54,689 nt of DNA from a bacterium (GCA_037445575.1 JBBIKH010000005.1:1-54689); one strand, 5' to 3'. Positions 20,562 through 33,695 are shown, counted from the first letter of the stretch. Numbers and translations: made by a program. The notes: generated from the sequence alone by a model not told the origin.

Positions 20562-22010
20562 TCAATTCAAGATCATCACCTTGCCCCAGTAGCTGCCTTC
20601 CCCCTCGAGGTCGAGGCGGTAGAAGTAGACCCCATTGGCCACCACGTCACCGCGATCGTTACGGCCGTTCCACGCCTCTGCAAAGTCGCCCACTGGGCGC
20701 GCCTTATGCTCCACCACCGTCGCCACAAGGTCAAGGGCAAAGTCGTAGACGCGAATGGTCACCCGCGTGGGCCTTGTGGTGTGGTACTGAAACCGCACGT
20801 ACCCATCGCCGCCAAGCTGGTTGTGACGCATGGGTGAAAAGGGATTGGGATAGGCGTAGGTGCGCGGTGTCCCCGCGGTCCCGGTCGGCACATAGGCTCG
20901 GAAGATCTGCCAGGTGAAGCCATTGTTGTTGGTCCTTGCCAGGCCATCGGCCGTCCCCACCCACAGATAAGCGTCTTGCCCCGCGGTTGTGCAATAGAAC
21001 TGGGTGGTGTAGATGCGTTCGCCGCTCTGGCTGTCAACAATAGGGGGAAAGACCAGAAAAGAGTCAGGCGCCACCGATTTCCAAAGACCATTGTCCGAGA
21101 CGGCGTACACGGTGCCTGTCGCAGGATCGAAGCCAAAATTGTGCACAAACTCCCCTTTGAGAAGCGTGCGCCAGCTTCTACCCCCGTCCTCGGACACAGA
21201 GACGGAGCGGAACTCCTCGGGGTCCTCGGCCTCGATGGTTGCGGCCCAAAGGATGGACTTGCCCTGCGCCCTCTGGTGGGCCAGCGCCACGACAAAGTTC
21301 CCGGAAATGGGGCTGGACTGGTTCTGGTGGTTCATATTGACCCACGTGCGACCGCCGTCGATCGACTTGTTGATCCCCTTGGCAGTGCCCACCCACAGGG
21401 TCTCCTCCACCGCGATCACGGCAAAGGCGCGGTGGTTGAGGTTGCCATACGGATCGAAAAGGAACGTATCGGGAGTGACTACCTCCCAACTTTGGCCCAT
21501 ATCGCGCGACTGCCGCAGACCACCTCCCCAGCTTGTGATCCACACCGCGCTATCAGTCAGCGCAATGTCGTAGGTGACGTTCTGCACCGGTGTCGGACCC
21601 GGCTGGGGGAGCCATTGCCAGGTGCGGCCACCGTCGACGCTATAGGAGAGTCCACCGCCTGCCGGCAGGTAGCCGATGTTAGTGATGAGCGTATCGAAGG
21701 CCGTCGCGGTCCAGATGGTGTCCCCGCGCATGGCCAAGGCCGATACTCCACCTTTGCCCAGTCCGTGGGCCCGGCCATAGGAGCGCCAGGTTGTGCCCCC
21801 GTCCTCACTCACACAGAGTCCGGCACCTGTGCCTGCCCAGATTCGGCCGCCGCTAATCACCAGATCGGTGACCGCATTGCTTGCCAGGCGCGGCACAGGG
21901 GTGGGCTGGTCCATGTGGTACCCCCCCTTATCAAGCACCTGGGCCAAGCCACCGCCAGTGAGAACGGCGAGGAACAACCCCGCCACGCCGAGGGCCAGTA
22001 GCCTCGCCAT
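20562..22010 (-). CDS. BNR/Asp-box repeat beta-propeller protein with T9SS type-A C-terminal sorting domain
   Basis: Six S-x-D-x-G-x-T/S-W boxes (SEDGGTTW, SVDGGRTW, SRDMGQSW, SIDGGRTW, SEDGGRSW, NNNGFTW). CTD YAYPNPFSP...ANGVYFYRLDLEGEGSYWGKVMILN. The start is set at ATG 22010 (MARLLALGVAGLFLAV signal peptide, GGAGGAG RBS), 10 nt after the upstream stop. Confidence 0.75.
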   Translation of the reverse strand: MARLLALGVAGLFLAVLTGGGLAQVLDKGGYHMDQPTPVPRLASNAVTDLVISGGRIWAGTGAGLCVSEDGGTTWRSYGRAHGLGKGGVSALAMRGDTIWTATAFDTLITNIGYLPAGGGLSYSVDGGRTWQWLPQPGPTPVQNVTYDIALTDSAVWITSWGGGLRQSRDMGQSWEVVTPDTFLFDPYGNLNHRAFAVIAVEETLWVGTAKGINKSIDGGRTWVNMNHQNQSSPISGNFVVALAHQRAQGKSILWAATIEAEDPEEFRSVSVSEDGGRSWRTLLKGEFVHNFGFDPATGTVYAVSDNGLWKSVAPDSFLVFPPIVDSQSGERIYTTQFYCTTAGQDAYLWVGTADGLARTNNNGFTWQIFRAYVPTGTAGTPRTYAYPNPFSPMRHNQLGGDGYVRFQYHTTRPTRVTIRVYDFALDLVATVVEHKARPVGDFAEAWNGRNDRGDVVANGVYFYRLDLEGEGSYWGKVMILN

Positions 22011-22020
22011 CGGGCTCCTC

Positions 22021-23208
22021 CTACCGGACCTTGAAACGACGGATAATGGTCGCACTTGTATTTCCAACCCTATCCTCCGCTTGGAAGGTGAATGTGTACC
22101 ACCCTTGCTGGATGGGGTTCCCTTGTGGGTCCCACCGCTGCGCATCCTGGTCAGCATACACAACCAAGGTGAATGTGTATACCCCGTCGCCGGCAATCTG
22201 ATCCCCGTAGGCCTGGACCTGCAAAGGGTCAAAGGGCAGGCCGTTGTCCACCATGGGAATGGGTTGACCAGCGTTGGCGACCGTGGAGTCCGGCTTGCGG
22301 GAGATAAATCCCACACGCTTGATATCTTCCCAGGACTGAGGATCGCGTACCGCCGCAGTGATGGGGACCAAAACTGCCCCACTCACCGGCTTGGCAACGG
22401 AGTCTGGCACGGTGACCTCCTCAAGAACCGGAGGCCCATTGCCGATGTAAAGCGAGGCGCGCGCCTCAGTGCTCTGAGCTCCCCCTAGGTCACTCGCCAC
22501 GAAGATGAGCTCGTGGGCGCCCATTTTCCCGGCGGCAAAGTTCGCCTGTACTCCCAGGCTGAAGCGGCCGTCTCCTGGCATCTCGTCACCTTGCGTGCCA
22601 TCGTCGGCGAGCGCACCGGCAAACGCCCAGGCACCGCCGTGCAGGGCGCGGAAATCCACCACCCGCACATCGCCCACGCCCTGGGAATCGAACACGTCGG
22701 CGCACAGGAGCACGGTGCCTTGGAAGCCACTGGGCAGGGAATCCGGGACGCTCAGATGCACGATCTCCGGTGGCGAGTTGGCGCGCAACAGGACGTTCTT
22801 GACCACCGCCTCCGACCAATGACCATCTTGATCTACTGCTCGGAATTCAACGGACATGCTCTCAGCGGTACTCTGCCCGGATGTCCGGCGCAGGCGCTGT
22901 GAGAACATGCCATCCTTGGCGATCTCGTCGCCGTCCCCTGGATGGAGAAACCCGCCGTCGTCCCACAAGGTGTCGGTGCCTGCGGCAAGGGCCTGCGCGT
23001 ACCACGTCATGAGCACAAACCGCACATCGGCCACCCCCTGGGGATCCGCCACGACCGCTTGCACCAGATACCACTGCGAGCGATTCAACACAGAAGGCAT
23101 CCTCAGTTCCAGAATGCGAGGAGCCTGGTCTTCCCAGCCGTTGGGGGACTCGGAGCTACACGCCACGATGAGGCCAAGGAATGCTACCGCCAGGCGGGTA
23201 CGCCGCAT
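22021..23208 (-). CDS. lipoprotein with three internal ~115-aa Ig-like repeats
   Basis: Lipobox LIVAC. Each of the three modules contains D-P/S-Q-G-V-x-D-V-R then GD-E-x-x-x-DG-x-F/Y-S/T (DPQGVADVR...GDEIAKDGMFS; DSQGVGDVR...GDEMPGDGRFS; DPQSWEDIKR...GDQIAGDGVYT). Confidence 0.65.
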   Translation of the reverse strand: MRRTRLAVAFLGLIVACSSESPNGWEDQAPRILELRMPSVLNRSQWYLVQAVVADPQGVADVRFVLMTWYAQALAAGTDTLWDDGGFLHPGDGDEIAKDGMFSQRLRRTSGQSTAESMSVEFRAVDQDGHWSEAVVKNVLLRANSPPEIVHLSVPDSLPSGFQGTVLLCADVFDSQGVGDVRVVDFRALHGGAWAFAGALADDGTQGDEMPGDGRFSLGVQANFAAGKMGAHELIFVASDLGGAQSTEARASLYIGNGPPVLEEVTVPDSVAKPVSGAVLVPITAAVRDPQSWEDIKRVGFISRKPDSTVANAGQPIPMVDNGLPFDPLQVQAYGDQIAGDGVYTFTLVVYADQDAQRWDPQGNPIQQGWYTFTFQAEDRVGNTSATIIRRFKVR

Positions 23209-23225
23209 AGAGCGCCTTCCTCATA

Positions 23226-23262
23226 CAAAAAGACCGGGCGTTTGCTCGGCTGGCACCCGGTC
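23226..23262 (-). terminator. intrinsic terminator-like hairpin + U-tract only 18 nt upstream of the 23208 start codon (possible attenuator)
   Basis: Minus strand reads GACCGGGTG-ccagccgagcaaa-CGCCCGGTC-TTTTTG, a 9-bp stem including one G.U pair. The RBS GAGGAAGG follows immediately. Confidence 0.5.
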
Positions 23263-23400
23263 CATAGGTCACGTTGCAAGGCCAGCACCCGAGTCGCTAG
23301 GAATTCCTGCAAGCTCTCAATCCCATACCACGACAACAGACGTGCAACACCCTAGCAAAGACGGACTCGAGGCGACCTCCACGTTTCTTCCGCGCAGGCA

Positions 23401-23429
23401 AATGTAGCGAAACGCCCAAGAAAAATCAA
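23401..23429 (-). promoter_or_regulatory. candidate sigma70 promoter (TTGATT-N17-TACATT) overlapping the HAD stop codon
   Basis: Minus strand reads gcgcTTGATTtttcttgggcgtttcgcTACATTtgcc. It would give a ~185-nt leader containing the terminator hairpin. Confidence 0.3.
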
Positions 23430-24100
23430 GCGCTTTTTCGGCTCGGCCGGTCCTTCAGAACCAGACTATCAAGTTGGCTGTGCAGGGCGCGAAGGTCGGA
23501 GACAATAACGTCTGCGCCCGAGAGATATTGCTCGCTCAATGTTGTGCGCACTGCCACGCACGCCATACCAGCGGCGCGCGCCGCCTGGATGCCGGAGGGG
23601 GCGTTTTCCACAACCAGGCATTGCGCAGGTGGCACCCCCAACCGCTGCGCCGCAAGGATATAGGGATCGGGATGTGGCTTACCGCGCGCTGCATCGCCGG
23701 CGGCCACGATGGCGTCGAACAGCGCGATCAGCTGCGGCGGAAGCACTGCGCTGACGTTGGCCCGCTCCGTGCCAGTCACTAAGGCCACCTTGAGACCACG
23801 CCGCTTGAGTTCGCTTACCAGCTCCATAGCGCCTGGTGCCGCCCCGGCCCGATGCAGCTGCCGAAAGCGCTCGTTCTTGCGGCGCGCCACCTCCTCCGCC
23901 TGCTCTGTGGACATCGGCACACCCACGCTGTCAGCAATGATCTTGGCAATCTCGCCAGCCGGGCGCCCCTCGTTGCGCAGCACCATCTCCGGCGCGAGCT
24001 CAATGCCCACGGAGGCCAGCACCTCCCTCCACGCCGCCAGGTGCCAGGGCATCGTGTCGCCAATCACCCCATCAAAATCAAACAACACCGCCCGTATCAC
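23426..24100 (-). CDS. HAD-superfamily hydrolase (beta-phosphoglucomutase/phosphatase-like)
   Basis: Motif I AVLFDFDGVIGDT, VTGT (motif II region) and a C-terminal ENAPSGIQAARAAGM. The GTG start overlaps the stop of the upstream lyase (GTGA). Confidence 0.85.
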   Translation of the reverse strand: MIRAVLFDFDGVIGDTMPWHLAAWREVLASVGIELAPEMVLRNEGRPAGEIAKIIADSVGVPMSTEQAEEVARRKNERFRQLHRAGAAPGAMELVSELKRRGLKVALVTGTERANVSAVLPPQLIALFDAIVAAGDAARGKPHPDPYILAAQRLGVPPAQCLVVENAPSGIQAARAAGMACVAVRTTLSEQYLSGADVIVSDLRALHSQLDSLVLKDRPSRKSA

Positions 24101-25473
24101 TCCACCTCCTCAAGGCGCGCGGTGAAATGCCGCAACAGGGGGGCCTCATACACCAGGCGAAGTCCCTTGATGGACTCCCGCCTCTGGTAGAGGCTAATGA
24201 GCGCTTCCGCGACATAGTTCATGTGCATCGTGGTGTACACACGTCGGGGCACCGCCAGGCGCACCAATTCCAAAGGAGGGTGGCGCTCTTCGCCCGTCAC
24301 GGGGTCTTTTTCTGCGAACATCAAACTGCCAATCTCCACCGCCCTAATGCCGAATTCCCGATACAGAGCCACCACCAGCGCCTGCCCTGGAAACTGCGCG
24401 GGCGGAATGTGGGGCAGAAATTCGCGAGCGTTCACATACACCGCATGCCCCCCTACAGGCTTCAGGATGGGCACACCGGCTTTGTCCAACAGTTCCCCCA
24501 AGTAACGCACTTGGCCGACTCGAAAGCGCAGATAGTCCTCGTCAAGCACCTCTTCAAGGCCGCGGGCGATGGCTTCCAAGTCCCTTCCTGCCAGGCCCCC
24601 ATACGTCGTAAAGCCCTCCACCAGGATGAGCAGGTTGGACACCTTTTCGCACAGCCCGTCATCGTTCATCCCCAGGAAGCCGCCGATGTTGACAAGCCCA
24701 TCCTTCTTGGCGCTCATGGTGCAGCCATCGCCGTAGGAGAACATCTCCTGCGCAATGGCCGCAATCGACTTGTCCTGGTATCCTGGTTCCCGTTCCTTGA
24801 TGAAGTAGCAGTTTTCCGCAAAGCGGCAAGCGTCGAAGAAAAGAGGGATGCCGTATCTGCTGAGGAGCTGCTTGGTCTGGCGAATGTTCTCCATCGACAC
24901 GGGCTGGCCACCGCCACTGTTGTTAGTGACGGTGATCATGCACAGGGGAATGTTTTCTGGGCCGTAGGTGCCAATCACCTGCTCGAGTTTGGCCAAGTCC
25001 ATGTTCCCCTTGAAAGGGTGCACCACGTGCGGATCACGCCCCTCGTCGATCACCAGATCAAGCGGTATGCCCCCGTTGTGGAGGACGTTGGCCCGCGTGG
25101 TGTCGAAATGGTTGTTGTTGGGGACCACCTTGCCCTTGCTCACCGTCACGGAAAAGAGCAGGTTTTCCGCAGAGCGGCCTTGGTGCGTGGGGATGACGTG
25201 CTTGAAGCCGAAAATCCTGCGCACCGTCTCCTCCAGATGGAAGTAGTTGCGGCTCCCGGCGTAGGACTCGTCGCCCAGCATCATGCCGGCCCACTGGTTG
25301 TCGCTCATTGCCGAAGTGCCGCTGTCGGTGAGCAGGTCGATGAGAATGCTCTCGGCGGGCAGGTTGAAGACATTTAGCCCGCCCTCCCGCAACAACCGGT
25401 CGCGCTCCTCGCGGGTGGTGCGCTTGATGGGCTCGACGACTTTGATTTTGAAAGGCTCAAACAGTTGCTCCAT
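24097..25473 (-). CDS. tryptophanase / tyrosine phenol-lyase-family beta-eliminating PLP lyase
   Basis: Near-colinear with the TPL/Tnase family: FKIKVVEP, IDLLTDSGTSAMSDNQWAGMMLGDESYAGS, PLP lysine in CTMSAKKDGLVNIGGFL and C-terminal FTARLEEV. Substrate (Trp vs Tyr) cannot be decided by eye. Confidence 0.9.
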   Translation of the reverse strand: MEQLFEPFKIKVVEPIKRTTREERDRLLREGGLNVFNLPAESILIDLLTDSGTSAMSDNQWAGMMLGDESYAGSRNYFHLEETVRRIFGFKHVIPTHQGRSAENLLFSVTVSKGKVVPNNNHFDTTRANVLHNGGIPLDLVIDEGRDPHVVHPFKGNMDLAKLEQVIGTYGPENIPLCMITVTNNSGGGQPVSMENIRQTKQLLSRYGIPLFFDACRFAENCYFIKEREPGYQDKSIAAIAQEMFSYGDGCTMSAKKDGLVNIGGFLGMNDDGLCEKVSNLLILVEGFTTYGGLAGRDLEAIARGLEEVLDEDYLRFRVGQVRYLGELLDKAGVPILKPVGGHAVYVNAREFLPHIPPAQFPGQALVVALYREFGIRAVEIGSLMFAEKDPVTGEERHPPLELVRLAVPRRVYTTMHMNYVAEALISLYQRRESIKGLRLVYEAPLLRHFTARLEEVE

Positions 25474-25493: not shown

Positions 25494-26033
25494 TCAGCGA
25501 TGCAATGGTTCGAAAGTGATAAAGTCCGCATGGTGGACGATAATCGCCTCCGGGCTTCGGTAACCACTGTCCCCCTCCTTGGCATGCACGGCGATGATGT
25601 GCACTACCTCATCGGGCAAGCCATGGGCGAGCGCCAGCCCCGCACCACTGAACGGGTGGCGGAGAAGTTTGCCCCCTGCGCTCTTGACAAAACCCTGGCC
25701 ACCTCGACCGAACTCCAGAAGCTTGCCGACGTCGTGGAGTAACGCCCCAGCTGCCAACACGTCGAAATTGAGGTTCAGATGGCCCGTGTAGTGCTCTGCC
25801 AGGACCTCTGCTGTTTTGATGGCGATCTGGGTCACCGCCCGCACGTGGGTGAGGTAGCTGACTGGACAGTTAGGAATCAGCAAGGTGAATGGCATGGAAA
25901 CCAGGTCCTCGGGTGACCAACCTCCACGGGCCAGGGCATCGGCCATCACCGCCACCGTCTTGTCCCGCAGCGTAGTATCCTTGATCCAGGACAGCTCGGG
26001 GAATAGTTCTCGTAGTCGTTGCGCATTGTCCAT
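25494..26033 (-). CDS. HD-domain metal-dependent phosphohydrolase
   Basis: GALLHDVGK motif and a downstream HAKEGD region. ATG 26033 with a GAGGAG RBS is preferred over the GTG at 26051. Confidence 0.75.
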   Translation of the reverse strand: MDNAQRLRELFPELSWIKDTTLRDKTVAVMADALARGGWSPEDLVSMPFTLLIPNCPVSYLTHVRAVTQIAIKTAEVLAEHYTGHLNLNFDVLAAGALLHDVGKLLEFGRGGQGFVKSAGGKLLRHPFSGAGLALAHGLPDEVVHIIAVHAKEGDSGYRSPEAIIVHHADFITFEPLHR

Positions 26034-26047
26034 GGCTCTCTTTCTCC

Positions 26048-26788
26048 TCACCGTCCGTTACCTTGCGGGGCGGACTCGCGCAGCACTACAGCCATGTCGC
26101 GGACCGCCTGGGCCAACCCCACCAGCAGCGCGCGGCAGAGCAGTGCATGGCCAACGTTGACCTCCTCGATCTGGACGATCTTTGCCACTTCGCGCACGTT
26201 CTGGTAGTTCAAGCCGCCTGCGACGCTCACGCCGAGGCCCAGCTTGTTCGCCGCCAACGCAGCCGCTCGCAACTTCTCCAGCTGCTCGCTCTGGGCGTTG
26301 AGATCCTGGGCCAATGCCAACTGGGTCGTGTTCAGCTCCACATAGTCGACACCCACCTGCGCAGCTGCCTTGACCTGCCGGACCTCCGGCTCGATGCGCA
26401 CCGTGACCACCACATTGCTGCCGCGCAGCCCGGCAACCAACTCCGTCATTGCTTCGACCGCGGCTACCACATCAACTCCTGCCGGTGGCACCACCCCCTG
26501 CGCCAGTGCCGGGATCAAGGTGACCATATCCGGCTGCACGGCCACCGCCCTCTTGACCATTTCTTCCTTTGCCGCCACACGCAGGTTAAAGTGTGTGGTC
26601 ACCACCTCCTTGAGCAAGGCGATGTCGCGCTCGGTCAGGTAACGACGATCTTCCCGCAAGGTGGCGACGATGCCGTCGGCTCCCCCCACCTCTGCCTGCA
26701 CGGCTGCGGCGACGGGGTTGGGTTCCTTGCCGCGCCCGTCGGCGCGCATCACTGCCACCAAATCCACATTCACCCCGAGCCTGAGCAT
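26048..26788 (-). CDS. pdxJ: PdxJ-like TIM-barrel protein (pyridoxine 5'-phosphate synthase homologue with substituted catalytic residues)
   Basis: Gap-free alignment by eye to E. coli PdxJ over the first ~110 residues (LGVNVD..., GGADGI, LREDRR, NVGHA). ATG 26788 is preceded by GGAGGAG at 5 nt. See the finding on its active site. Confidence 0.8.
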   Translation of the reverse strand: MLRLGVNVDLVAVMRADGRGKEPNPVAAAVQAEVGGADGIVATLREDRRYLTERDIALLKEVVTTHFNLRVAAKEEMVKRAVAVQPDMVTLIPALAQGVVPPAGVDVVAAVEAMTELVAGLRGSNVVVTVRIEPEVRQVKAAAQVGVDYVELNTTQLALAQDLNAQSEQLEKLRAAALAANKLGLGVSVAGGLNYQNVREVAKIVQIEEVNVGHALLCRALLVGLAQAVRDMAVVLRESAPQGNGR

Positions 26789-26815
26789 AACCACTCCTCC
26801 TGGTTCTACCCCTGC

Positions 26816-27964
26816 TTAGCCTGGCATGATGAGCACATTCCGTCCTTCGCAGCGAGCCGCGATAGGTGGGACTGGCAGCCCGAGCAGTTGAGAGACAGGC
26901 ACGAATCTCAGCCCTTGTTCCTGCAGTCGGGGCACCTCACGGCGCACGAGCTCGTAGGTAGTGCGCCGCATATGGCCTATGCCTACCGCCTTCCCCTTGC
27001 GCTTTGCCACCTGCGCCAGTAGTGACAGCTGCCTATGCACCTTCGCCGTATCGGGCTCCACATCAAGAAACGTGGCATTGGCAACGCATGGCACCTGCAT
27101 GCGCTCCGCTACCTCCAGCGCTATGCTCTGGCTATTGGTTCGACTATCGACAAAGTATAGACCGCGACTTTTCAGTTCCTGCATGAGGACGGTCATGACC
27201 TGCACATCGGCAGTGGCGCGCGAGCCCTGGTGGTTGTTCATGCCGACGGCACCCGGCACACAGGCAAGGGCCCGAGCGACGCGCTCACGAATCTCCTTCT
27301 CGCTGAGCGTGACCAGTAGCGTGAAGCCTCGGTCCTCCACCGGTTCGTGGAGCGGCTCCATGGGCATGTGCACCATGACCTCCTTGCCGGCTGCCGCCGC
27401 CTGCTCAGCGATCACACCGGAAAAAGGAAGCCCCGGGATAACCGACACGGTGACTGCCCAAGGGAGCTCCAGGAAGCCCTTGGCCAACTCGCCGGCAGAA
27501 TAGCCAAAGTCATCAATCACCAGGGCGACCAAGGGCCCTTCATCTTCGCTTGGTTGGGCCTGCACCAGCTTAACGCGAAGGAGATCCCGGTCTCCCATCC
27601 GCAGGACCAATCGCGACCATCCCTTGCCGGAGGCTTGTTCTGCAAGCCCGGCGCCCAACTGTTGCGCGCGGCGCAGCATCTCCGCGGAGACCACCGCCGG
27701 CGACTTGTCCCCTGGCAGCGGGATAACCAGCCACCCGCCCTCTTCCCTGACTTCCTGCTGGTCCGCTCCATACTGCACGGCCACCTTCTGCAGCGCGCTG
27801 CGCACTACCTCTGTTGTGGGCTTGGCGGGCTGGGGACGCCCACCAGGGTAACGGTGTCTGGCGTACGCCAGAAGCAGTACCAACACCATCGCGCCGACAA
27901 GGAGCAGATACTTTCCCCTGCGCCGCCGCGCAACTGACTGCCTATGGGCACGTCGTCTCCGCAT
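26816..27964 (-). CDS. divergent polysaccharide deacetylase-family protein (YibQ-like) with N-terminal membrane anchor
   Basis: Arg-rich N-terminus plus TM (YLLLVGAMVLVLLLAYA). VALVIDDFGY, HMPMEP and MNNHQGSRATAD motifs of the YibQ family. Confidence 0.8.
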   Translation of the reverse strand: MRRRRAHRQSVARRRRGKYLLLVGAMVLVLLLAYARHRYPGGRPQPAKPTTEVVRSALQKVAVQYGADQQEVREEGGWLVIPLPGDKSPAVVSAEMLRRAQQLGAGLAEQASGKGWSRLVLRMGDRDLLRVKLVQAQPSEDEGPLVALVIDDFGYSAGELAKGFLELPWAVTVSVIPGLPFSGVIAEQAAAAGKEVMVHMPMEPLHEPVEDRGFTLLVTLSEKEIRERVARALACVPGAVGMNNHQGSRATADVQVMTVLMQELKSRGLYFVDSRTNSQSIALEVAERMQVPCVANATFLDVEPDTAKVHRQLSLLAQVAKRKGKAVGIGHMRRTTYELVRREVPRLQEQGLRFVPVSQLLGLPVPPIAARCEGRNVLIMPG

Positions 27965-27987: not shown

Positions 27988-28602
27988 CTACTTGCCGAAC
28001 ACCGCCTTGAAGGTGCTCCACGAAGGCCCTTGCCCGGTGCCAGTGTCATACCACTGCCAGATGTACCAATAGCCGCTCTGCGGGTCCAGGCGAAGGTGGA
28101 ATTCCGCCTGACCCCGCGCCTGACGCGGGTAGGAGGGATCGCGCAGGGTGTGATGCATCGTCAATATATAATCCTCCACCACCACGGCCGAATCGGGAAA
28201 AGAGCTCTCCGAGACCAGAGTAAGCTCTAACTTGTGCAGCGAATCGTCTGGAACCACGGCGAAGAGTTGGCGGAGGTAGTTTTCCTCGCTGGCGAGCCCC
28301 CAGCGGTCAAAGAATCCCAGGTTGAGGGAGGCAACGCTCCGGTCGGGAACAAAGGAGAAAGGGGGGCGGCCCGAAGCGCCGTCACTGAGGCAGCGCAGGT
28401 AGTTGTCTACGCTCTTGCCCCCAAGGGCGTTACGCATGTTGGCAAGCACCAAGGAGGCGGAGGTGGGAGGTATCCACGGCGTCCTCCCGCCCGTAGGCGG
28501 CTCTGCCTCGCGAGTAGCAAAGGGGCTCTTGCACTGCCCTGCAACTACCAGGACCACGAGCGCCGACAGTCTCAGGCTGTGCCAGCATGTCTTGTGTGCC
28601 AC
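27988..28602 (-). CDS. hypothetical anchored/secreted protein, paralogous in layout to 10696-11358
   Basis: GTG 28602 gives the N-terminus VAHKTCWHSLRLSALVVLVVAGQCKSPF. The ORF-track ATG at 28755 lies inside the predicted -35 element and is therefore unlikely. The C-terminus ...GYWYIWQWYDTG is NTF2-like (inference). Confidence 0.5.
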   Translation of the reverse strand: MAHKTCWHSLRLSALVVLVVAGQCKSPFATREAEPPTGGRTPWIPPTSASLVLANMRNALGGKSVDNYLRCLSDGASGRPPFSFVPDRSVASLNLGFFDRWGLASEENYLRQLFAVVPDDSLHKLELTLVSESSFPDSAVVVEDYILTMHHTLRDPSYPRQARGQAEFHLRLDPQSGYWYIWQWYDTGTGQGPSWSTFKAVFGK

Positions 28603-29497: not shown

Positions 29498-29646
29498 ACG
29501 GGCAGTTCTAATGAGAGGGAGCTGCCGGACGTAGCCTATCTGTTTGGAAATTGGGATAGCAGGCGCTTGACAGAGGATGCACGTCCTCGATTTGTTGATC
29601 CCTGATGGCGCCGAGCGAATCAAGCATAACAGGAACGGCCGCTACG

Positions 29647-32154
29647 ATGAAAGTGCCGCTAATCGTGGTTTTGATCCTCCTTTTCTTTCCCACCATCCAG
29701 TTCTGTCATGCCGCTGACCCAACTAGGAATTATGAATTCCTTCCCATCTGGCAAAGGTCAGCGTTATCTTTGGTTCCTATGGACGTAAATGCGCAAACGC
29801 CTGGCGAGGAACTCATAGTAGTCTACCCCAATCAGGTAGACGTTTTGACGAGCACTTCACTGACTCACCAAAAAAGCTTCATTGTCCCGGCCGATAAACC
29901 TTATAGCATCACGCCATTACCCGGTGAGTCACCGGATTCACTCCGACTGCTGTTCGGCTATGAAACGCCGACCGCGTCTGTTTTTAACCTATACCTTTAT
30001 GACGGCAGGGACGTTGTGCTCGCCAAAGAGAAGTGTCTCTTTTTCAGCGGACAGGATCGCGATCTAGATGGAAGATTCCATCAAACAATCGTTCCCGTTG
30101 GGCTCATTAATGGTCGAAACAACAAGAGGAATGTGCTGCTACTGGTCGATAGCGGCGGAGATGCGGGGGCTCGCGGCTTGCTTGCTATAGATCCCTCAAC
30201 GGGCAAAGAGGTCTGGCGCTACTTGGCAGGACCCCAGATTCGCCATCAAATGATTGTTGACCTAGAAAATGACGGATTGGAAGAAATTGTGCTTGGCAGC
30301 TATGCGCCCAAGAATGAGCTTAAGCTCAATGGCACCAGTGACGATAGCTGCTATGTTTTTGTGCTTGACAATCTGGGCAATGAACGCTGGCGTAAGACAA
30401 TCGGTCCTTTTTGGACCGGAGCATTTCCCATCGTCGGAGACTTGAATGGCGATGGAAAAAAGGAGTTGGTGGTCCATCGTTTTGGCACCAATCAATACTT
30501 TGCCGATTATGACGAGTTGATCCAATTAGACATTCGCACTGGCGAGCCGATCCATCGTCAAAAACTTGGTAGTCATTTCCTGGCAGCCTCCACTGCTGTG
30601 CTGACGGGAATCTGCCATGATTTTGACCTCGATGGCATTGACGAGTTCGTCATTGGCAGCACGGACGGGTTCGTGAGGATGTATCGAGGGGATTTGTCTG
30701 TGATGTGTTCGTCAGAACCCTATCGCCGACCGATCGCAGTTCATTCCGTGGCAGATATGGATGGGGATGGGCTTCTAGAAGTCATAGCATTGACAGCAGA
30801 CAGAAAGATTGTCTTCTTCAATCACCAACTGAAGCAGTTATTGATTGCACCGTTTCTGACTAATCTAGAGGATTTCTACCTGGTTAAACTTCCTCACAAA
30901 CGGCGGCTGCTGTCTTCAAACGGGCTTGCCGGTACTACGACAGATTATCAACTGTTCGACTTCCACGTCGTTGGTTTAGCTGGTGCAATCAAGAAACGAG
31001 GACAAAATTACTTGGTCATCATCTTGTCCCTTGCTGGCTTGACCGTGGCGTTGGTTGCTTTGCGAAATCATTTGTATGGCAAACGGGCTTGGCAGTTGTT
31101 GTTCCAAATACTTGAGCAAACCCATTCTTTGGATAGAACGCTGATTCTGGATCGCCATCAAAGAATTAGCCATTGGGGTAAGGACTGGGCAAGTCTGCCG
31201 CAAATTCCACCCCATCTGGCAAAAGGCAAGAAACTCCAGCAGGTCTTCGGCAACAGCCATGTTCGTCCTGTTGGCGAAGCACTGGAAAAGATGCTCACTG
31301 AAGAATTAACGAATTATCAGTGTCTCTGCCCAATCGATACCACCAGCCATGTGCCACTCCAATTCAAGGCATTGTACATTTCCTGGATCAAAGCCTGCTG
31401 CGTCATGATTTTCGACCTGCGCGAAGAGGAGCACATCCGTCAGCTCAAACACTGGGCCCAGGTTGCCCAGCGATTGGCGCATGGCATCAAGAATCCGCTG
31501 ACTACCATTAAGCTCAACGCCGAGGAGTTGCTTCACAAAGTCAGAAGCACCGATCAGATTCAGGCACAAGATGTGGAAGAATATGTCACGCCGATTATCA
31601 CCCAGATCGACAAACTGAAAAAAATGAGCGATGGTTTTATGCGGTTTGTCGAGTTCGAGCAGCCGGATTTGAAACCCTGCGACTTGAATCGTGAATGCAG
31701 GGAATTGATCCCTCAATGGCAGCCGGAAAAAAGCGGCAAAATTCAGATTGACTGGGAACTAGAACAAGACCTGCCTCCTGCTATGATCGATCTGCGGCAA
31801 TTTGAATACGCGGTCAAAAATGTTTTCTATAACGCCCTCGAAAGCATCCGTGACGAGGGCAGAATCTTGATCGCAACACGCAGCGTCCAGTTGTTTACAC
31901 AGAATGCCAATGGCGGGGGGATGTCGAGTTTTGTTGAGCTGGAAATTCGGGATACCGGCTGCGGAATTCCGCCAGAATATCTCGATCGGGTTAAGCAGCC
32001 CTATTTTTCGCTCAACAAACCCGAGGGCACCGGACTGGGGCTGAGCATCGTCCAGAAAATTATGGACTCCCACGGCGGACAATTTGATATCCAGAGCGAG
32101 GTGGGCCTGGGCACCTGGGTGATTCTGCGGTTCAAACAGGCGAGTACCAGCTAG
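29647..32154 (+). CDS. sensor histidine kinase with N-terminal periplasmic FG-GAP/VCBS-repeat beta-propeller domain
   Basis: Signal peptide MKVPLIVVLILLFFPTIQFCHA (ATG 29647; an upstream ATG at 29605 is possible). FG-GAP-like repeats DLENDGLEEIVLGS, DLNGDGKKELVV, DFDLDGIDEFVIGS, DMDGDGLLEVIAL. TM segment NYLVIILSLAGLTVALVAL and a PAS-like linker. H-box AHGIKNPLTTI, N-box and G-boxes DTGCGIP / GTGLGLSIV. Confidence 0.85.
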   Translation: MKVPLIVVLILLFFPTIQFCHAADPTRNYEFLPIWQRSALSLVPMDVNAQTPGEELIVVYPNQVDVLTSTSLTHQKSFIVPADKPYSITPLPGESPDSLRLLFGYETPTASVFNLYLYDGRDVVLAKEKCLFFSGQDRDLDGRFHQTIVPVGLINGRNNKRNVLLLVDSGGDAGARGLLAIDPSTGKEVWRYLAGPQIRHQMIVDLENDGLEEIVLGSYAPKNELKLNGTSDDSCYVFVLDNLGNERWRKTIGPFWTGAFPIVGDLNGDGKKELVVHRFGTNQYFADYDELIQLDIRTGEPIHRQKLGSHFLAASTAVLTGICHDFDLDGIDEFVIGSTDGFVRMYRGDLSVMCSSEPYRRPIAVHSVADMDGDGLLEVIALTADRKIVFFNHQLKQLLIAPFLTNLEDFYLVKLPHKRRLLSSNGLAGTTTDYQLFDFHVVGLAGAIKKRGQNYLVIILSLAGLTVALVALRNHLYGKRAWQLLFQILEQTHSLDRTLILDRHQRISHWGKDWASLPQIPPHLAKGKKLQQVFGNSHVRPVGEALEKMLTEELTNYQCLCPIDTTSHVPLQFKALYISWIKACCVMIFDLREEEHIRQLKHWAQVAQRLAHGIKNPLTTIKLNAEELLHKVRSTDQIQAQDVEEYVTPIITQIDKLKKMSDGFMRFVEFEQPDLKPCDLNRECRELIPQWQPEKSGKIQIDWELEQDLPPAMIDLRQFEYAVKNVFYNALESIRDEGRILIATRSVQLFTQNANGGGMSSFVELEIRDTGCGIPPEYLDRVKQPYFSLNKPEGTGLGLSIVQKIMDSHGGQFDIQSEVGLGTWVILRFKQASTS

Positions 32155-32333: not shown

Positions 32334-33695
32334 ATGTGCCCCAAATGTAACATCCTGATCACAGATGATGATGTTACCATCTGTCAAATTCTAAGGCGAA
32401 TCTTGGAAAGCGAAAACTATTAGATCAAAGAAGCTTACTCCGGCAATGAGGCGCTTTCGTTGTTTTCAGAAAATGAGTTCGACCTAGTGCTGCTGGATCT
32501 ACAACTCCCAGACAAAAACGGGATCGATGTTGCCCGGGAGATGATTGCCCAAAACCCGCTTGTCCCGATTGTGCTCATGTCTGCGTATGGAACTATTCCC
32601 AGGGCTGTTGAAGCGACGAGAATGGGCGTATATGATTTTTTGGAGAAGCCGCTGGACCGGGATCGCATTCTGGTCACGGTGCGCAATGCCCTAGTCCATG
32701 GTCAATTGCAACAGGAATTGATCCATTATAGACAGGACTCGTTAGCCCGCTATCAAATGGTCGGGCAATCGCCGGAAATCCAGCGGGTCTTTTCCCTCAT
32801 CGAAAAAATCGCGCCCACCAACTCGCCGGTGCTCATCCTTGGTGAAAACGGCGTCGGCAAGGAATTGGTCGCTCAGGCGATTCACAACCGCAGTCCCAGG
32901 GCGAATAAGCCACTGGTCAGCATCGATTGCGCCGCCATTCCGGATAATCTGCTGGAAAGCGAACTCTTTGGCCACACCAAGGGCGCATTTACCGGCGCAA
33001 GCATAGCAAAAAAGGGCCGCTTCGAGATGGCCGACGGTGGCACCCTGTTTCTCGATGAGGTGGGCGACATGAGTTTGTCAGCCCAGGCAAAGCTCCTGCG
33101 ATTCTTGGAGCGCGGCGAAATCCAGCGGGTCGGTTCATCCCAGGTCACCTCGGTCGATGTGCGGATTATCGCTGCCTCCAATAAGGACTTGAAGCAGATG
33201 GTCGCTGATAAGGCCTTCAGGGAAGACCTTTATTTTCGGTTAGAGATTTTCACCATCACCGTGCCTCCACTGCGGGAACGCCGCTCCGACATCCCGTTGC
33301 TCCTCGATTTCTTCCTTTCCTATTATGCCGAAAAAAATGCCACTGTCAAGCCCATCCTGACGCCGGCCGCCATCAAATATCTTTCGGGACTTGACTGGCC
33401 AGGCAACATCCGCCAGATGCGCAATTTTGTCGAACGTTTAATGATCATGAAACAAGGAGACCTGATCGATCTCAACGAAGTCGTCCCTCTGCTTGAAGCC
33501 AAAGAACCATCATCCCCCATTTCACCCAGCGAATCCAAACCTCTGCAGCAAGCTCGGGAAGATTTCGAGCGCGCGTACATTCTCAAAGTCCTCGAAGAAA
33601 ACGACTGGAAGGTCGCCAAAGCCGCAGAGGTGCTTCACATCGACCGGGCGAATTTGTATCGGAAGTTAAGGGGGTTGGGGATAACTGCGCAGTGA
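32334..33695 (+). pseudogene. sigma54-dependent (NtrC-family) response regulator interrupted by an in-frame TAG at 32421-32423
   Basis: ATG 32334 gives MCPKCNILITDDDVTICQILRRILESENY*IKEAYSGNEALSLFSENEFDLVLLDLQLPD... This is a receiver domain, followed by an AAA+ sigma54-interaction domain (GENGVGKE, GAFTGA, ESELFGH-type motifs) and a C-terminal Fis-type HTH. The ORF-track entry (32460) is the post-stop remainder. Confidence 0.8.

What the first reader, a model, noticed from the sequence alone, without database searches (positions are those of the whole stretch)
26048..26788. PdxJ homologue with all three catalytic residues replaced
The protein aligns without gaps to E. coli PdxJ over the first ~110 residues, and again around the C-terminal GH motif. 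It keeps N9, D11, R47, E153 and G215-H216. The residues annotated as catalytic in E. coli PdxJ are H45, E72 and H193 (recalled from the UniProt/HAMAP annotation). They are replaced here: VHLRED becomes ATLRED (H45 to T), NLEMA becomes NLRVA (E72 to R) and NAGHGL becomes VAGGLN (H193 to G). Substrate-binding residues are also changed: H12 to L, H52 to Y and T102/T103 to V/P. This looks like a TIM-barrel that retains phosphate-binding features but cannot perform the canonical PNP synthase reaction. It may be a pseudoenzyme or an enzyme with a new activity.
Basis: partly seen in the sequence, partly recalled or inferred. Interest (0 to 1): 0.62.

Follow-up and report, generated by a model that had tools for sequence, protein, structure and literature searches.

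The report
Catalytically dead PdxJ orthologue in KSB1
This intact, selectively maintained gene of an uncultured KSB1 bacterium sits where related bacteria keep the vitamin-B6 enzyme PdxJ, but it has lost that enzyme's catalytic residues and active-site lid, so it very probably no longer makes vitamin B6 although databases name it as the working synthase.

Summary
The 246-aa ORF (window 26048-26788, minus strand) aligns without gaps to E. coli PdxJ. It carries T/R/G at the catalytic positions H45/E72/H193. It also has H12L, H52Y, T102V, T103P, F133R and H155N, and a degenerate lid loop. These positions are invariant in 90 close canonical relatives and in 34 of 36 loci checked from other phyla.

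It is not a decaying pseudogene. dN/dS is 0.11-0.14, a Shine-Dalgarno site is present, and the AlphaFold model is a complete barrel (pLDDT 92.8). A 12-member clade keeps the new residues.

Flanking genes are collinear with loci that hold canonical pdxJ in other KSB1 lineages, so this is the lineage's own pdxJ slot, not a stray paralogue. Sister subclades at the same slot carry different residues at the former catalytic positions. Of the best 150 representatives at 50% identity, 67 lack the triad.

Best reading: an ex-PNP-synthase that keeps the standard phosphate-binding corner. It now binds, or acts on, one anionic ligand. Its function is unknown.

The genome could not be scanned for pdxA or pdxS/pdxT because the tool was shut. 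NCBIfam equivalog cut-offs still pass it, so pathway predictions based on pdxJ would be wrong here.

The parts
26048..26788 (-). PdxJ-like ORF, 246 aa plus stop. A (beta/alpha)8 barrel lacking the H45/E72/H193 equivalents (T43, R70, G191 in its own numbering).
26796..26801 (-). Shine-Dalgarno AGGAGG, 7 nt upstream of the ATG at 26788
   Evidence: read from the sequence
26477..26509 (-). Codons for residues 94-104, equivalent to the E. coli lid loop 96-106. Invariant ExRxExTTEGG in canonical PdxJ; here ALAQGVVPPAG, the most variable stretch within the clade.
   Evidence: AF2 pLDDT drops to 73 in this block. The lid role of residues 95-105 is from PMC10471632.
26816..27964 (-). Upstream gene: membrane-anchored divergent polysaccharide deacetylase (PF04748, YibQ-like). 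It directly precedes PdxJ or PdxJ-like in every KSB1-type locus examined where the upstream sequence was available.
27988..28602 (-). First gene of the string: conserved ~204-aa hypothetical protein, no Pfam or NCBIfam match. Homologous to the gene at the same place in canonical pdxJ loci.
25494..26033 (-). Downstream gene: 179-aa HDIG/HD-domain phosphohydrolase with the His/Asp metal motifs kept. An old neighbour of pdxJ in KSB1, not specific to the dead form.
24097..25473 (-). PLP-dependent beta-eliminating lyase of the tryptophanase / tyrosine phenol-lyase family (SAKKDG lysine motif present); dN/dS about 0.04
23426..24100 (-). HAD-superfamily hydrolase (beta-phosphoglucomutase family), overlapping the lyase stop by 4 nt

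Best explanation
This is the KSB1 lineage's own pdxJ gene. It occupies the same slot, directly after the yibQ-like deacetylase gene, as canonical pdxJ in other KSB1 lineages. It has stopped being a pyridoxine 5'-phosphate synthase.

**Lost.** The acid/base residues H45, E72 and H193. The residues that hold the 1-deoxy-D-xylulose-5-phosphate end of the reaction (H12, H52, T102, T103). The mobile lid (E. coli 96-106) that closes the two-substrate site.

**Kept.** The complete (beta/alpha)8 barrel. The standard TIM-barrel phosphate-binding corner (N9, G194, N213, G215-H216). D11, R47 and E153.

**Gained and conserved in this clade.** T45, Y52, R72, R133 and N155.

Shown: the gene is under purifying selection and is therefore used. 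Inferred: it is a single-site binder of a phosphorylated or otherwise anionic small molecule. It may merely bind that ligand (pseudoenzyme) or catalyse a simpler, different reaction on it. The organism must obtain pyridoxal phosphate by another route, either PdxS/PdxT or salvage.
For: - **Homology and replaced residues:**
- **Invariance of those residues in real PdxJ:** 90 of 90 close canonical relatives and 34 of 36 loci from many phyla.
- **Lid loop:** column entropy is 1.74 within the clade against a background of 0.67. No random background set out of 5000 reached it. The former pocket is at least as conserved as the background (0.47).
- **Purifying selection:** dN/dS is 0.139 at unsaturated dS 0.50 and 0.106-0.127 for other pairs. 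This is similar to the HD and HAD neighbours.
- **Fold:** AF2 pLDDT 92.8, pTM 0.90, eight strands and eight helices. Foldseek TM 0.92-0.93 to PdxJ structures.
- **Clade:** P0001-P0012 has 99% SH-aLRT support. The path from the last node shared with canonical sequences is about 1.15 substitutions per site, against 0.2-0.4 for canonical tips.
- **Positional orthology:** gene order. tblastn shows seven flanking genes of the canonical loci L006/L008 collinear with the window.
- **Sister subclades** at the same slot carry other residue sets at positions 45/72/193 (Q/R/G, M/V/R).
Against: - No biochemical or genetic test was possible.
- The protein still passes two NCBIfam equivalog cut-offs: NF003625 at 232 against 190, and TIGR00559 at 193.9 against 192.75.
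- No second pdxJ, pdxA, pdxS or pdxT could be looked for, because the genome search was shut. It is therefore not shown that the organism has another PLP source.
- Pocket conservation within the clade is not significantly above background (P = 0.11). In the sister subclades the pocket residues differ, which fits drift as well as a changed ligand.
- The catalytic roles of H45, E72 and H193 are recalled, not verified here.
Confidence: 0.7

Rival explanations
1. It is still a PNP synthase that uses a different set of catalytic residues.
For: It passes the equivalog HMM cut-offs. It is the positional orthologue of pdxJ. N9, D11, R47, E153, G194 and G215-H216 are kept. No alternative PLP route has been demonstrated (not testable).
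Against: At least eight positions that are invariant in canonical PdxJ across phyla are replaced, including all three acid/base residues. The lid needed for the closed two-substrate state (PMC10471632) is the fastest-evolving segment. Sister subclades in the same slot have unrelated residues at these positions, which is not expected for one conserved chemistry.
Confidence: 0.08
2. It is a functionless relic: a pdxJ gene drifting toward loss after the lineage became a B6 auxotroph or acquired PdxS/PdxT.
For: The lid and several pocket positions are relaxed. A much more degenerate PdxJ-fold ORF exists at the same place in another lineage: L110, only 48 bits to PF03740. Residues at former catalytic positions differ between subclades.
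Against: dN/dS is 0.11-0.14 over dS of 0.5-1.7. ORFs are intact in all lineages seen, down to 59% identity. A Shine-Dalgarno site is present. The AF2 barrel is confident. T45, Y52, R72, R133 and N155 are conserved across the clade.
Confidence: 0.06
3. It is an accessory or regulatory subunit working with a canonical PdxJ encoded elsewhere in the genome, for example in mixed octamers.
For: Lineage-specific non-catalytic residues are shared with canonical KSB1 PdxJ (invariant columns), so oligomer contacts could be retained. The genome could not be scanned.
Against: It occupies the only pdxJ slot known in KSB1. No fetched locus carries both forms.
Confidence: 0.08
4. It works as a specific functional pair with the HDIG phosphohydrolase encoded just downstream.
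For: Non-canonical PdxJ-like is directly followed by the HD gene in clade A and in the Q/R/G and M/V/R subclades, and even in the very degenerate L110.
Against: Of 80 metagenome loci holding HD homologues (50-76% identity), only 8 had a tblastn match to most of the length of PdxJ in the available flank (up to 4 kb; many contigs were shorter). L110 adds only a weak remnant. Four of those 8 are canonical PdxJ with one gene in between. The HD gene is thus an older neighbour and mostly occurs alone. One non-canonical subclade (L014) lacks it.
Confidence: 0.05

Closest known systems
E. coli PdxJ, pyridoxine 5'-phosphate synthase (EC 2.6.99.2; PDB 1ho1, 1m5w; Pfam PF03740; TIGR00559)
   Same: Same fold and length. 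Gapless alignment over 237 residues at about 39% identity, Foldseek TM 0.92-0.93. Keeps N9, D11, R47, E153, G194, N213 and G215-H216.
   Different: H45T, E72R and H193G. H12L, H52Y, T102V, T103P, H155N and F133R. Lid loop 96-106 degenerate.
Canonical PdxJ of other KSB1-type lineages (P0013 in L006, P0042 in L008/L009; also L108, L111, L115, L120)
   Same: Same genomic slot: hypothetical 204-aa gene, Polysacc_deac_2, PdxJ, then the HAD or lyase gene, a ~390-aa hypothetical and BNR genes. Identity 54-56%.
   Different: Those keep every hallmark residue. They are followed by an Asparaginase_II-family gene (L006, L008/L009) or an unclassified ~273-aa gene (L108) rather than directly by the HD gene. 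In the tree, canonical tips sit 0.2-0.4 substitutions per site from the shared node, about 3-5 times less than the variant.
Other non-canonical PdxJ-like clades (P0095/P0100/P0116; P0113/P0115/P0120; P0054/P0061/P0078; P0035/P0094/P0096/P0099; 67 of the 150 best 50%-identity representatives)
   Same: Loss of the H-E-H triad. Frequent R72 + G193 + N155 combination. G215 is kept throughout and G194 and N213 in most. For the Q/R/G and M/V/R subclades the neighbours examined are the same: Polysacc_deac_2, PdxJ-like, HD, lyase, HAD.
   Different: Each subclade has its own residues at positions 9, 12, 45, 52, 72, 133 and 216. Only the window's clade combines L12, T45, Y52, R72, R133 and N155.
Earlier notes of this scan on 'dead' PdxJ in Marinimicrobia and Zixibacteria (AI notes e1-1492894, e1-5128091; unpublished, unchecked)
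   Same: Same kind of loss and the same mislabelling as a working synthase. The Marinimicrobia note also reports a deacetylase gene next to it.
   Different: Other phyla. The relationship to the KSB1 clade was not tested here because the 50% representatives carry no taxon names.

Membership tests
PdxJ family by homology (Pfam PF03740; PdxJ fold) | Full-length match to the family HMM and the PdxJ (beta/alpha)8 fold | tested here: met
   PF03740 at 229 bits over profile 1-231 of 234. AF2 model pLDDT 92.8. TM 0.92-0.93 to 3f4n, 5dlc and 1ho1.
Functional PNP synthase (EC 2.6.99.2) | NCBIfam equivalog score above the curated cut-off | tested here: met
   NF003625 at 232 against 190 and TIGR00559 at 193.9 against 192.75. 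Four other equivalog models fall below their cut-offs. The models evidently do not weight the catalytic positions enough.
Functional PNP synthase (EC 2.6.99.2) | Acid/base residues H45, E72 and H193 (roles recalled from UniProt/HAMAP and the E. coli structures) | tested here: not met
   T, R and G at these positions. H, E and H in 90 of 90 canonical relatives and 34 of 36 loci from other phyla.
Functional PNP synthase (EC 2.6.99.2) | DXP-binding residues D11, H12, R47, H52, T102, T103 | tested here: not met
   D11 and R47 are kept. H12L, H52Y, T102V and T103P.
Functional PNP synthase (EC 2.6.99.2) | Mobile active-site lid (residues 95-105) that gives the closed, catalytically competent state | tested here: not met
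   Canonical E96, R98, E100, T102, T103, E104, G105 and G106 are invariant. Here the sequence is ALAQGVVPPAG and is the most variable segment of the clade. Lid role from PMC10471632.
Functional PNP synthase (EC 2.6.99.2) | Phosphate site for aminoacetone phosphate / PNP: N9, R20 (from the neighbouring subunit), G194, G215-H216 | tested here: inconclusive
   N9, G194, G215 and H216 are kept. Position 20 is G in the window and its three closest relatives, but R21 follows. The other clade members have R20-R21.
Functional PNP synthase (EC 2.6.99.2) | Pathway partners in the same genome (pdxA, dxs, pdxH) and absence of an alternative route (pdxS/pdxT) | not testable with these tools
The genome search and the fetch from genomes were shut. 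No PdxA, PdxH, PdxS or PdxT was found in the window or in 1.1 Mb of fetched loci.
Functional PNP synthase (EC 2.6.99.2) | PNP formation in vitro, or complementation of a pdxJ mutant | not testable with these tools
   Needs an experiment.
Pseudoenzyme / neofunctionalised ex-enzyme (operational definition) | Catalytic residues lost, yet intact, conserved as a clade and under purifying selection | tested here: met
   Clade of 12 with 99% SH-aLRT support. dN/dS 0.11-0.14. Switch residues T45, Y52, R72, R133 and N155 are conserved in 83-100% of the clade.

The most novel reading that the evidence does not exclude
The window's gene is one tip of a large, old and undescribed family of ex-PdxJ barrels, often with R72, G193 and N155. 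This family would have replaced the real PNP synthase at the ancestral yibQ-pdxJ slot in a whole section of KSB1. According to unverified notes of this scan, the same has happened in Marinimicrobia and Zixibacteria. These lineages would then have no PNP synthase at all and would be B6 auxotrophs or use another route, while the barrel has acquired a new ligand-binding or catalytic function. Genome-based B6 prototrophy calls that use pdxJ as the signature gene would be systematically wrong for them.
Probability: 0.35. Interest if true: 0.7.

Novelty: new variant of a known kind. Interest (0 to 1): 0.55.

Why it matters
pdxJ is used as the signature gene for the DXP-dependent vitamin-B6 pathway and is described as well annotated (PMC9997740). 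Here a gene that passes the curated equivalog thresholds, and that NCBI names pyridoxine 5'-phosphate synthase in a close relative (P0004), lacks the catalytic machinery. B6 prototrophy would therefore be over-predicted for this KSB1 lineage, and possibly for many uncultured FCB-group bacteria.

This matters for cultivation attempts and for models of vitamin cross-feeding in sediments. The gene also offers a natural series, from canonical through phosphate-site-only to nearly unrecognisable. That series can be used to study how an essential TIM-barrel enzyme is re-used after its reaction is lost.

Tried and rejected
1. **Whole-genome scan for pdxA, pdxS, pdxT or a second pdxJ.** The genome search and the fetch from genomes were shut.
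2. **Genome-contig scan with a mixed PdxJ alignment.** No member of the variant clade was returned. The scan was useful only as a cross-phylum control of residue invariance.
4. **'PdxJ-like + HD phosphohydrolase module' hypothesis.** Rejected: most HD homologues stand alone, and canonical PdxJ lineages have the same HD gene nearby.
5. **Taxon names for ten non-canonical representatives.** The clusters carry no organism names.
6. **Sequencing runs, for transcription evidence.** None were listed.
7. **Literature.** No paper was found on non-canonical or dead PdxJ. None of the papers listed that contained His45, Glu72 or His193 mentioned PdxJ. The KSB1 genomics paper does not mention B6.
8. **Promoter and terminator scan.** One promoter-like site lies upstream of the first gene (28755-28727), but the counts are not above the shuffled expectation.

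Full report
**What is there.** On the minus strand, 26048-26788 encodes a 246-aa protein. The ATG at 26788 is preceded by AGGAGG at 26796-26801 with a 7-nt spacer (sequence). The GTG at 26794 listed by the ORF finder touches the Shine-Dalgarno site and is unlikely to be the start. The protein matches Pfam PdxJ (PF03740) over practically the whole profile at 229 bits. phmmer aligns it without gaps to E. coli PdxJ (1m5w, 1ho1), with window residue i equal to E. coli residue i+2.

**The substitutions are real.** In a MAFFT alignment with E. coli PdxJ and 119 database homologues, the window protein has these changes:
- H12L, R20G (with R at position 21), H45T, H52Y, E72R
- T102V, T103P, H155N, G192A, H193G

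It keeps N9, D11, R17, R47, E48, D49, N70, E153, G194, N213, G215 and H216.

The assignment of H45 and E72 as proton acceptors, H193 as proton donor, E153 as transition-state stabiliser, and the binding residues, is my recollection of UniProt/HAMAP and the E. coli structure papers. I could not find an open paper stating it. The tool-based support is invariance:
- All these positions are identical in 90 of 90 close canonical relatives.
- They are identical in 34 of 36 PdxJ loci checked from Cyanobacteria, Nitrospirota, Planctomycetota, Fibrobacterota, Bacteroidota, Myxococcota and others.

The segment equivalent to E. coli 96-106 is invariant (ExRxExTTEGG) in canonical sequences. It is unrecognisable here (ALAQGVVPPAG). 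PMC10471632, citing the 1M5W structure, describes residues 95-105 as the active-site loop whose conformation distinguishes the open, partially open and closed states, the closed state favouring catalysis. Within the variant clade this loop is the fastest-evolving part. Its mean column entropy is 1.74 against 0.67 for the background, and none of 5000 random background sets reached it.

**Not a pseudogene.**
- Twelve database proteins (P0001-P0012, 59-88% identical) form a clade with 99% SH-aLRT support.
- The clade shares T/S45, R72, Y/F/C52, R/K133 and N/S155, and none has His at position 193.
- Pairwise Nei-Gojobori dN/dS is 0.139 for the closest pair (dS 0.50, unsaturated) and 0.106-0.127 for the others.
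- That is close to the neighbouring HD gene (0.06-0.17) and HAD gene (0.06-0.175). It is higher than the lyase (0.04) and isocitrate/isopropylmalate dehydrogenase (0.02-0.04).
- AlphaFold2 with a 52-sequence alignment gives pLDDT 92.8 and pTM 0.90, with eight strands and eight helices. Confidence dips only at the former lid.
- Foldseek returns PdxJ structures at TM 0.92-0.93. After those come other phosphate-binding barrels (MfnB, ribulose-phosphate epimerase, KGPDC, IGPS) at TM about 0.66.
- The former pocket positions are at least as conserved as the rest of the protein within the clade (0.47 against 0.67, P = 0.11).

**It is the lineage's own pdxJ slot.** In the window and in five relatives the gene order is as follows:
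1. a 204-aa hypothetical gene
2. Polysacc_deac_2 (YibQ-like)
3. PdxJ-like
4. HD
5. beta-eliminating lyase
6. HAD
7. a ~395-aa hypothetical gene
8. a BNR-repeat gene

In KSB1-type lineages with a fully canonical PdxJ (P0013 in L006; P0042 in L008/L009), the canonical gene sits in the same place after the same two upstream genes. The same downstream genes follow, with an Asparaginase_II-family gene in place of HD. tblastn of the proteins flanking canonical pdxJ in L006/L008 against the window finds seven of them in the same order and orientation, at 26-74% identity. The variant is therefore the positional orthologue of pdxJ, not a paralogue elsewhere.

In the IQ-TREE tree it nests inside the KSB1-like canonical radiation. 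The path from the last node shared with canonical sequences is about 1.15 substitutions per site, against 0.2-0.4 for canonical tips.

**A wider phenomenon.** Other non-canonical groups appear among the hits, each with its own residues at the former catalytic positions: Q/E/H-R-G, M-V-R, G/N/S-A-M/C/L and P/S/L-Q/R-G/R/Y. Two of them (P0116 in L012, P0120 in L013) have the same deacetylase, PdxJ-like, HD, lyase, HAD arrangement. One (P0099 in L014) has only the deacetylase link.

In an exhaustive phmmer search of 1.84 billion representatives at 50% identity, 4292 proteins match at E <= 0.001. Of the best 150, 67 lack the H-E-H triad, and R72, G193 and N155 recur together. That fraction is inflated. 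The query is itself non-canonical, and fast-evolving sequences split into more clusters.

FastTree puts 90 of 95 non-canonical sequences into one group next to the KSB1-like canonical PdxJs. That program joins long branches readily, so one origin against several is unresolved.

A still more degenerate member exists. L110 has a 224-aa ORF directly upstream of the HD gene that matches PF03740 only over its C-terminal half, at 48 bits.

Earlier AI notes of this scan report similar dead PdxJ genes in Marinimicrobia (with a deacetylase neighbour) and Zixibacteria. I did not test them.

**What it probably does.** The evidence divides into three levels.
- Shown: the fold, the retained phosphate corner, the loss of the catalytic, DXP-site and lid residues, and purifying selection.
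- Inferred: the protein no longer condenses DXP with aminoacetone phosphate.
- Inferred more weakly: it still binds one phosphorylated or anionic ligand at the standard beta7/beta8 phosphate site. The new, clade-conserved R72, R133 and Y52 would line the pocket.

A B6 vitamer phosphate is one candidate ligand, because the retained site is the one that holds the product's phosphate. That is speculation. Whether the protein only binds or also catalyses something cannot be decided here.

I tested one specific idea, that it works with the HD phosphohydrolase encoded downstream. The HD proteins are well conserved with intact metal motifs. A metagenome scan returned 80 HD-homologue loci. Only eight of them had a tblastn match covering most of PdxJ in the available flank, which was up to 4 kb and shorter for many contigs. 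L110 shows only a remnant. Four of the eight are canonical PdxJ with one extra gene in between. HD is therefore an old neighbour, not a dedicated partner.

**What could not be done.** The genome search tools were shut. So I could not ask whether this genome has pdxA, pdxH, pdxS/pdxT, a salvage kinase or a second pdxJ.
- The window, which is the whole 54.7-kb contig, has none of these among the ORFs scanned with Pfam or by tblastn over its full length.
- 1.1 Mb of fetched loci contain no PdxA, PdxH, PdxS or PdxT.
- A first-stage note says another contig of the same genome carries a half-length (211-aa) PdxA-like ORF without the metal-binding half. If true, it would fit decay of the whole DXP-dependent branch, but it is unverified.
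- No sequencing run could be found for expression evidence.

**Comparison with what is known.** By homology and fold the protein is a member of the PdxJ family. By the defining functional features of PNP synthase it fails three tests made here: the acid/base residues, the DXP-site residues and the lid. It nevertheless passes NCBIfam equivalog cut-offs, and a close relative is named pyridoxine 5'-phosphate synthase by NCBI (P0004).

The comparative-genomics survey of PLP synthesis uses pdxJ as the signature of the DXP-dependent pathway and calls it well annotated (PMC9997740). I found no paper describing non-canonical PdxJ proteins.

I rate this a new variant of a known kind: a conserved ex-enzyme derived in place from an essential biosynthetic gene. 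Interest is moderate. The function is unknown, the key genome check is missing, and the scan has met the same pattern in other phyla.

Noticed in passing
L110:3263-3937 (+): A 224-aa ORF directly upstream of an HD gene and a lyase gene matches PF03740 only over its C-terminal half (48 bits). It has lost even the REDRR, N70 and G215-H216 motifs. This is a far more degenerate PdxJ-fold relic, preceded here by a 655-aa membrane/TPR-like ORF rather than the deacetylase.
   Followed up: partly
P0139, P0145, P0162, P0180 (50%-identity representatives, 397-433 aa): The PdxJ-like domain occupies the C-terminal ~240 residues behind an N-terminal extension of ~155-180 aa. P0162 and P0180 are non-canonical (K72/Q193 and R45/G193). 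The fused domain was not identified.
   Followed up: no
window 25494-26033 (-) and L096-L175: The 179-aa HDIG protein belongs to a large, well-conserved family. Invariant LLHDVGKLLE, LLRHPFSG and HIIAxHAKEG motifs. Mostly not next to PdxJ. No close solved structure (best PDB E-value 0.2).
   Followed up: partly
window 24097-25473 (-): The beta-eliminating lyase scores 620 bits on the tyrosine phenol-lyase equivalog (cut-off 720.7) and 619 on a TnaA equivalog (cut-off 750). It clears only the tryptophanase subfamily model, so its substrate (Tyr or Trp) is undecided. It is 74% identical to the lyase in a canonical-pdxJ lineage.
   Followed up: partly
window 22024-23208 (-): A conserved ~395-aa hypothetical gene (87% identical to L002 13581-14768) lies here. 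Longest-ORF selection instead picked two plus-strand ORFs (22513-22902 and 22856-23407), which are probably spurious. The 606-aa minus-strand ORF 20562-22382 is over-extended at its 5' end; relatives start near 22067.
   Followed up: partly
window 26816-27964 (-) and all KSB1-type loci: A membrane-anchored PF04748 (YibQ-like) deacetylase gene directly precedes PdxJ, canonical or dead, in every KSB1-type locus examined where the upstream sequence was available. An earlier scan note reports the same pairing in Marinimicrobia. The reason for this persistent pairing is unknown.
   Followed up: partly
window 32460-33695 (+): The sigma-54 activator's receiver domain matches Pfam Response_reg only from profile position 39 onward. 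Either the start codon is miscalled or the receiver is N-terminally truncated. It follows an FG-GAP-repeat histidine kinase (29605-32154).
   Followed up: no
NCBIfam NF003625 and TIGR00559 against P0001: Two equivalog models for PNP synthase accept a protein lacking all three catalytic residues (232 against 190; 193.9 against 192.75). This is a source of systematic misannotation.
   Followed up: yes
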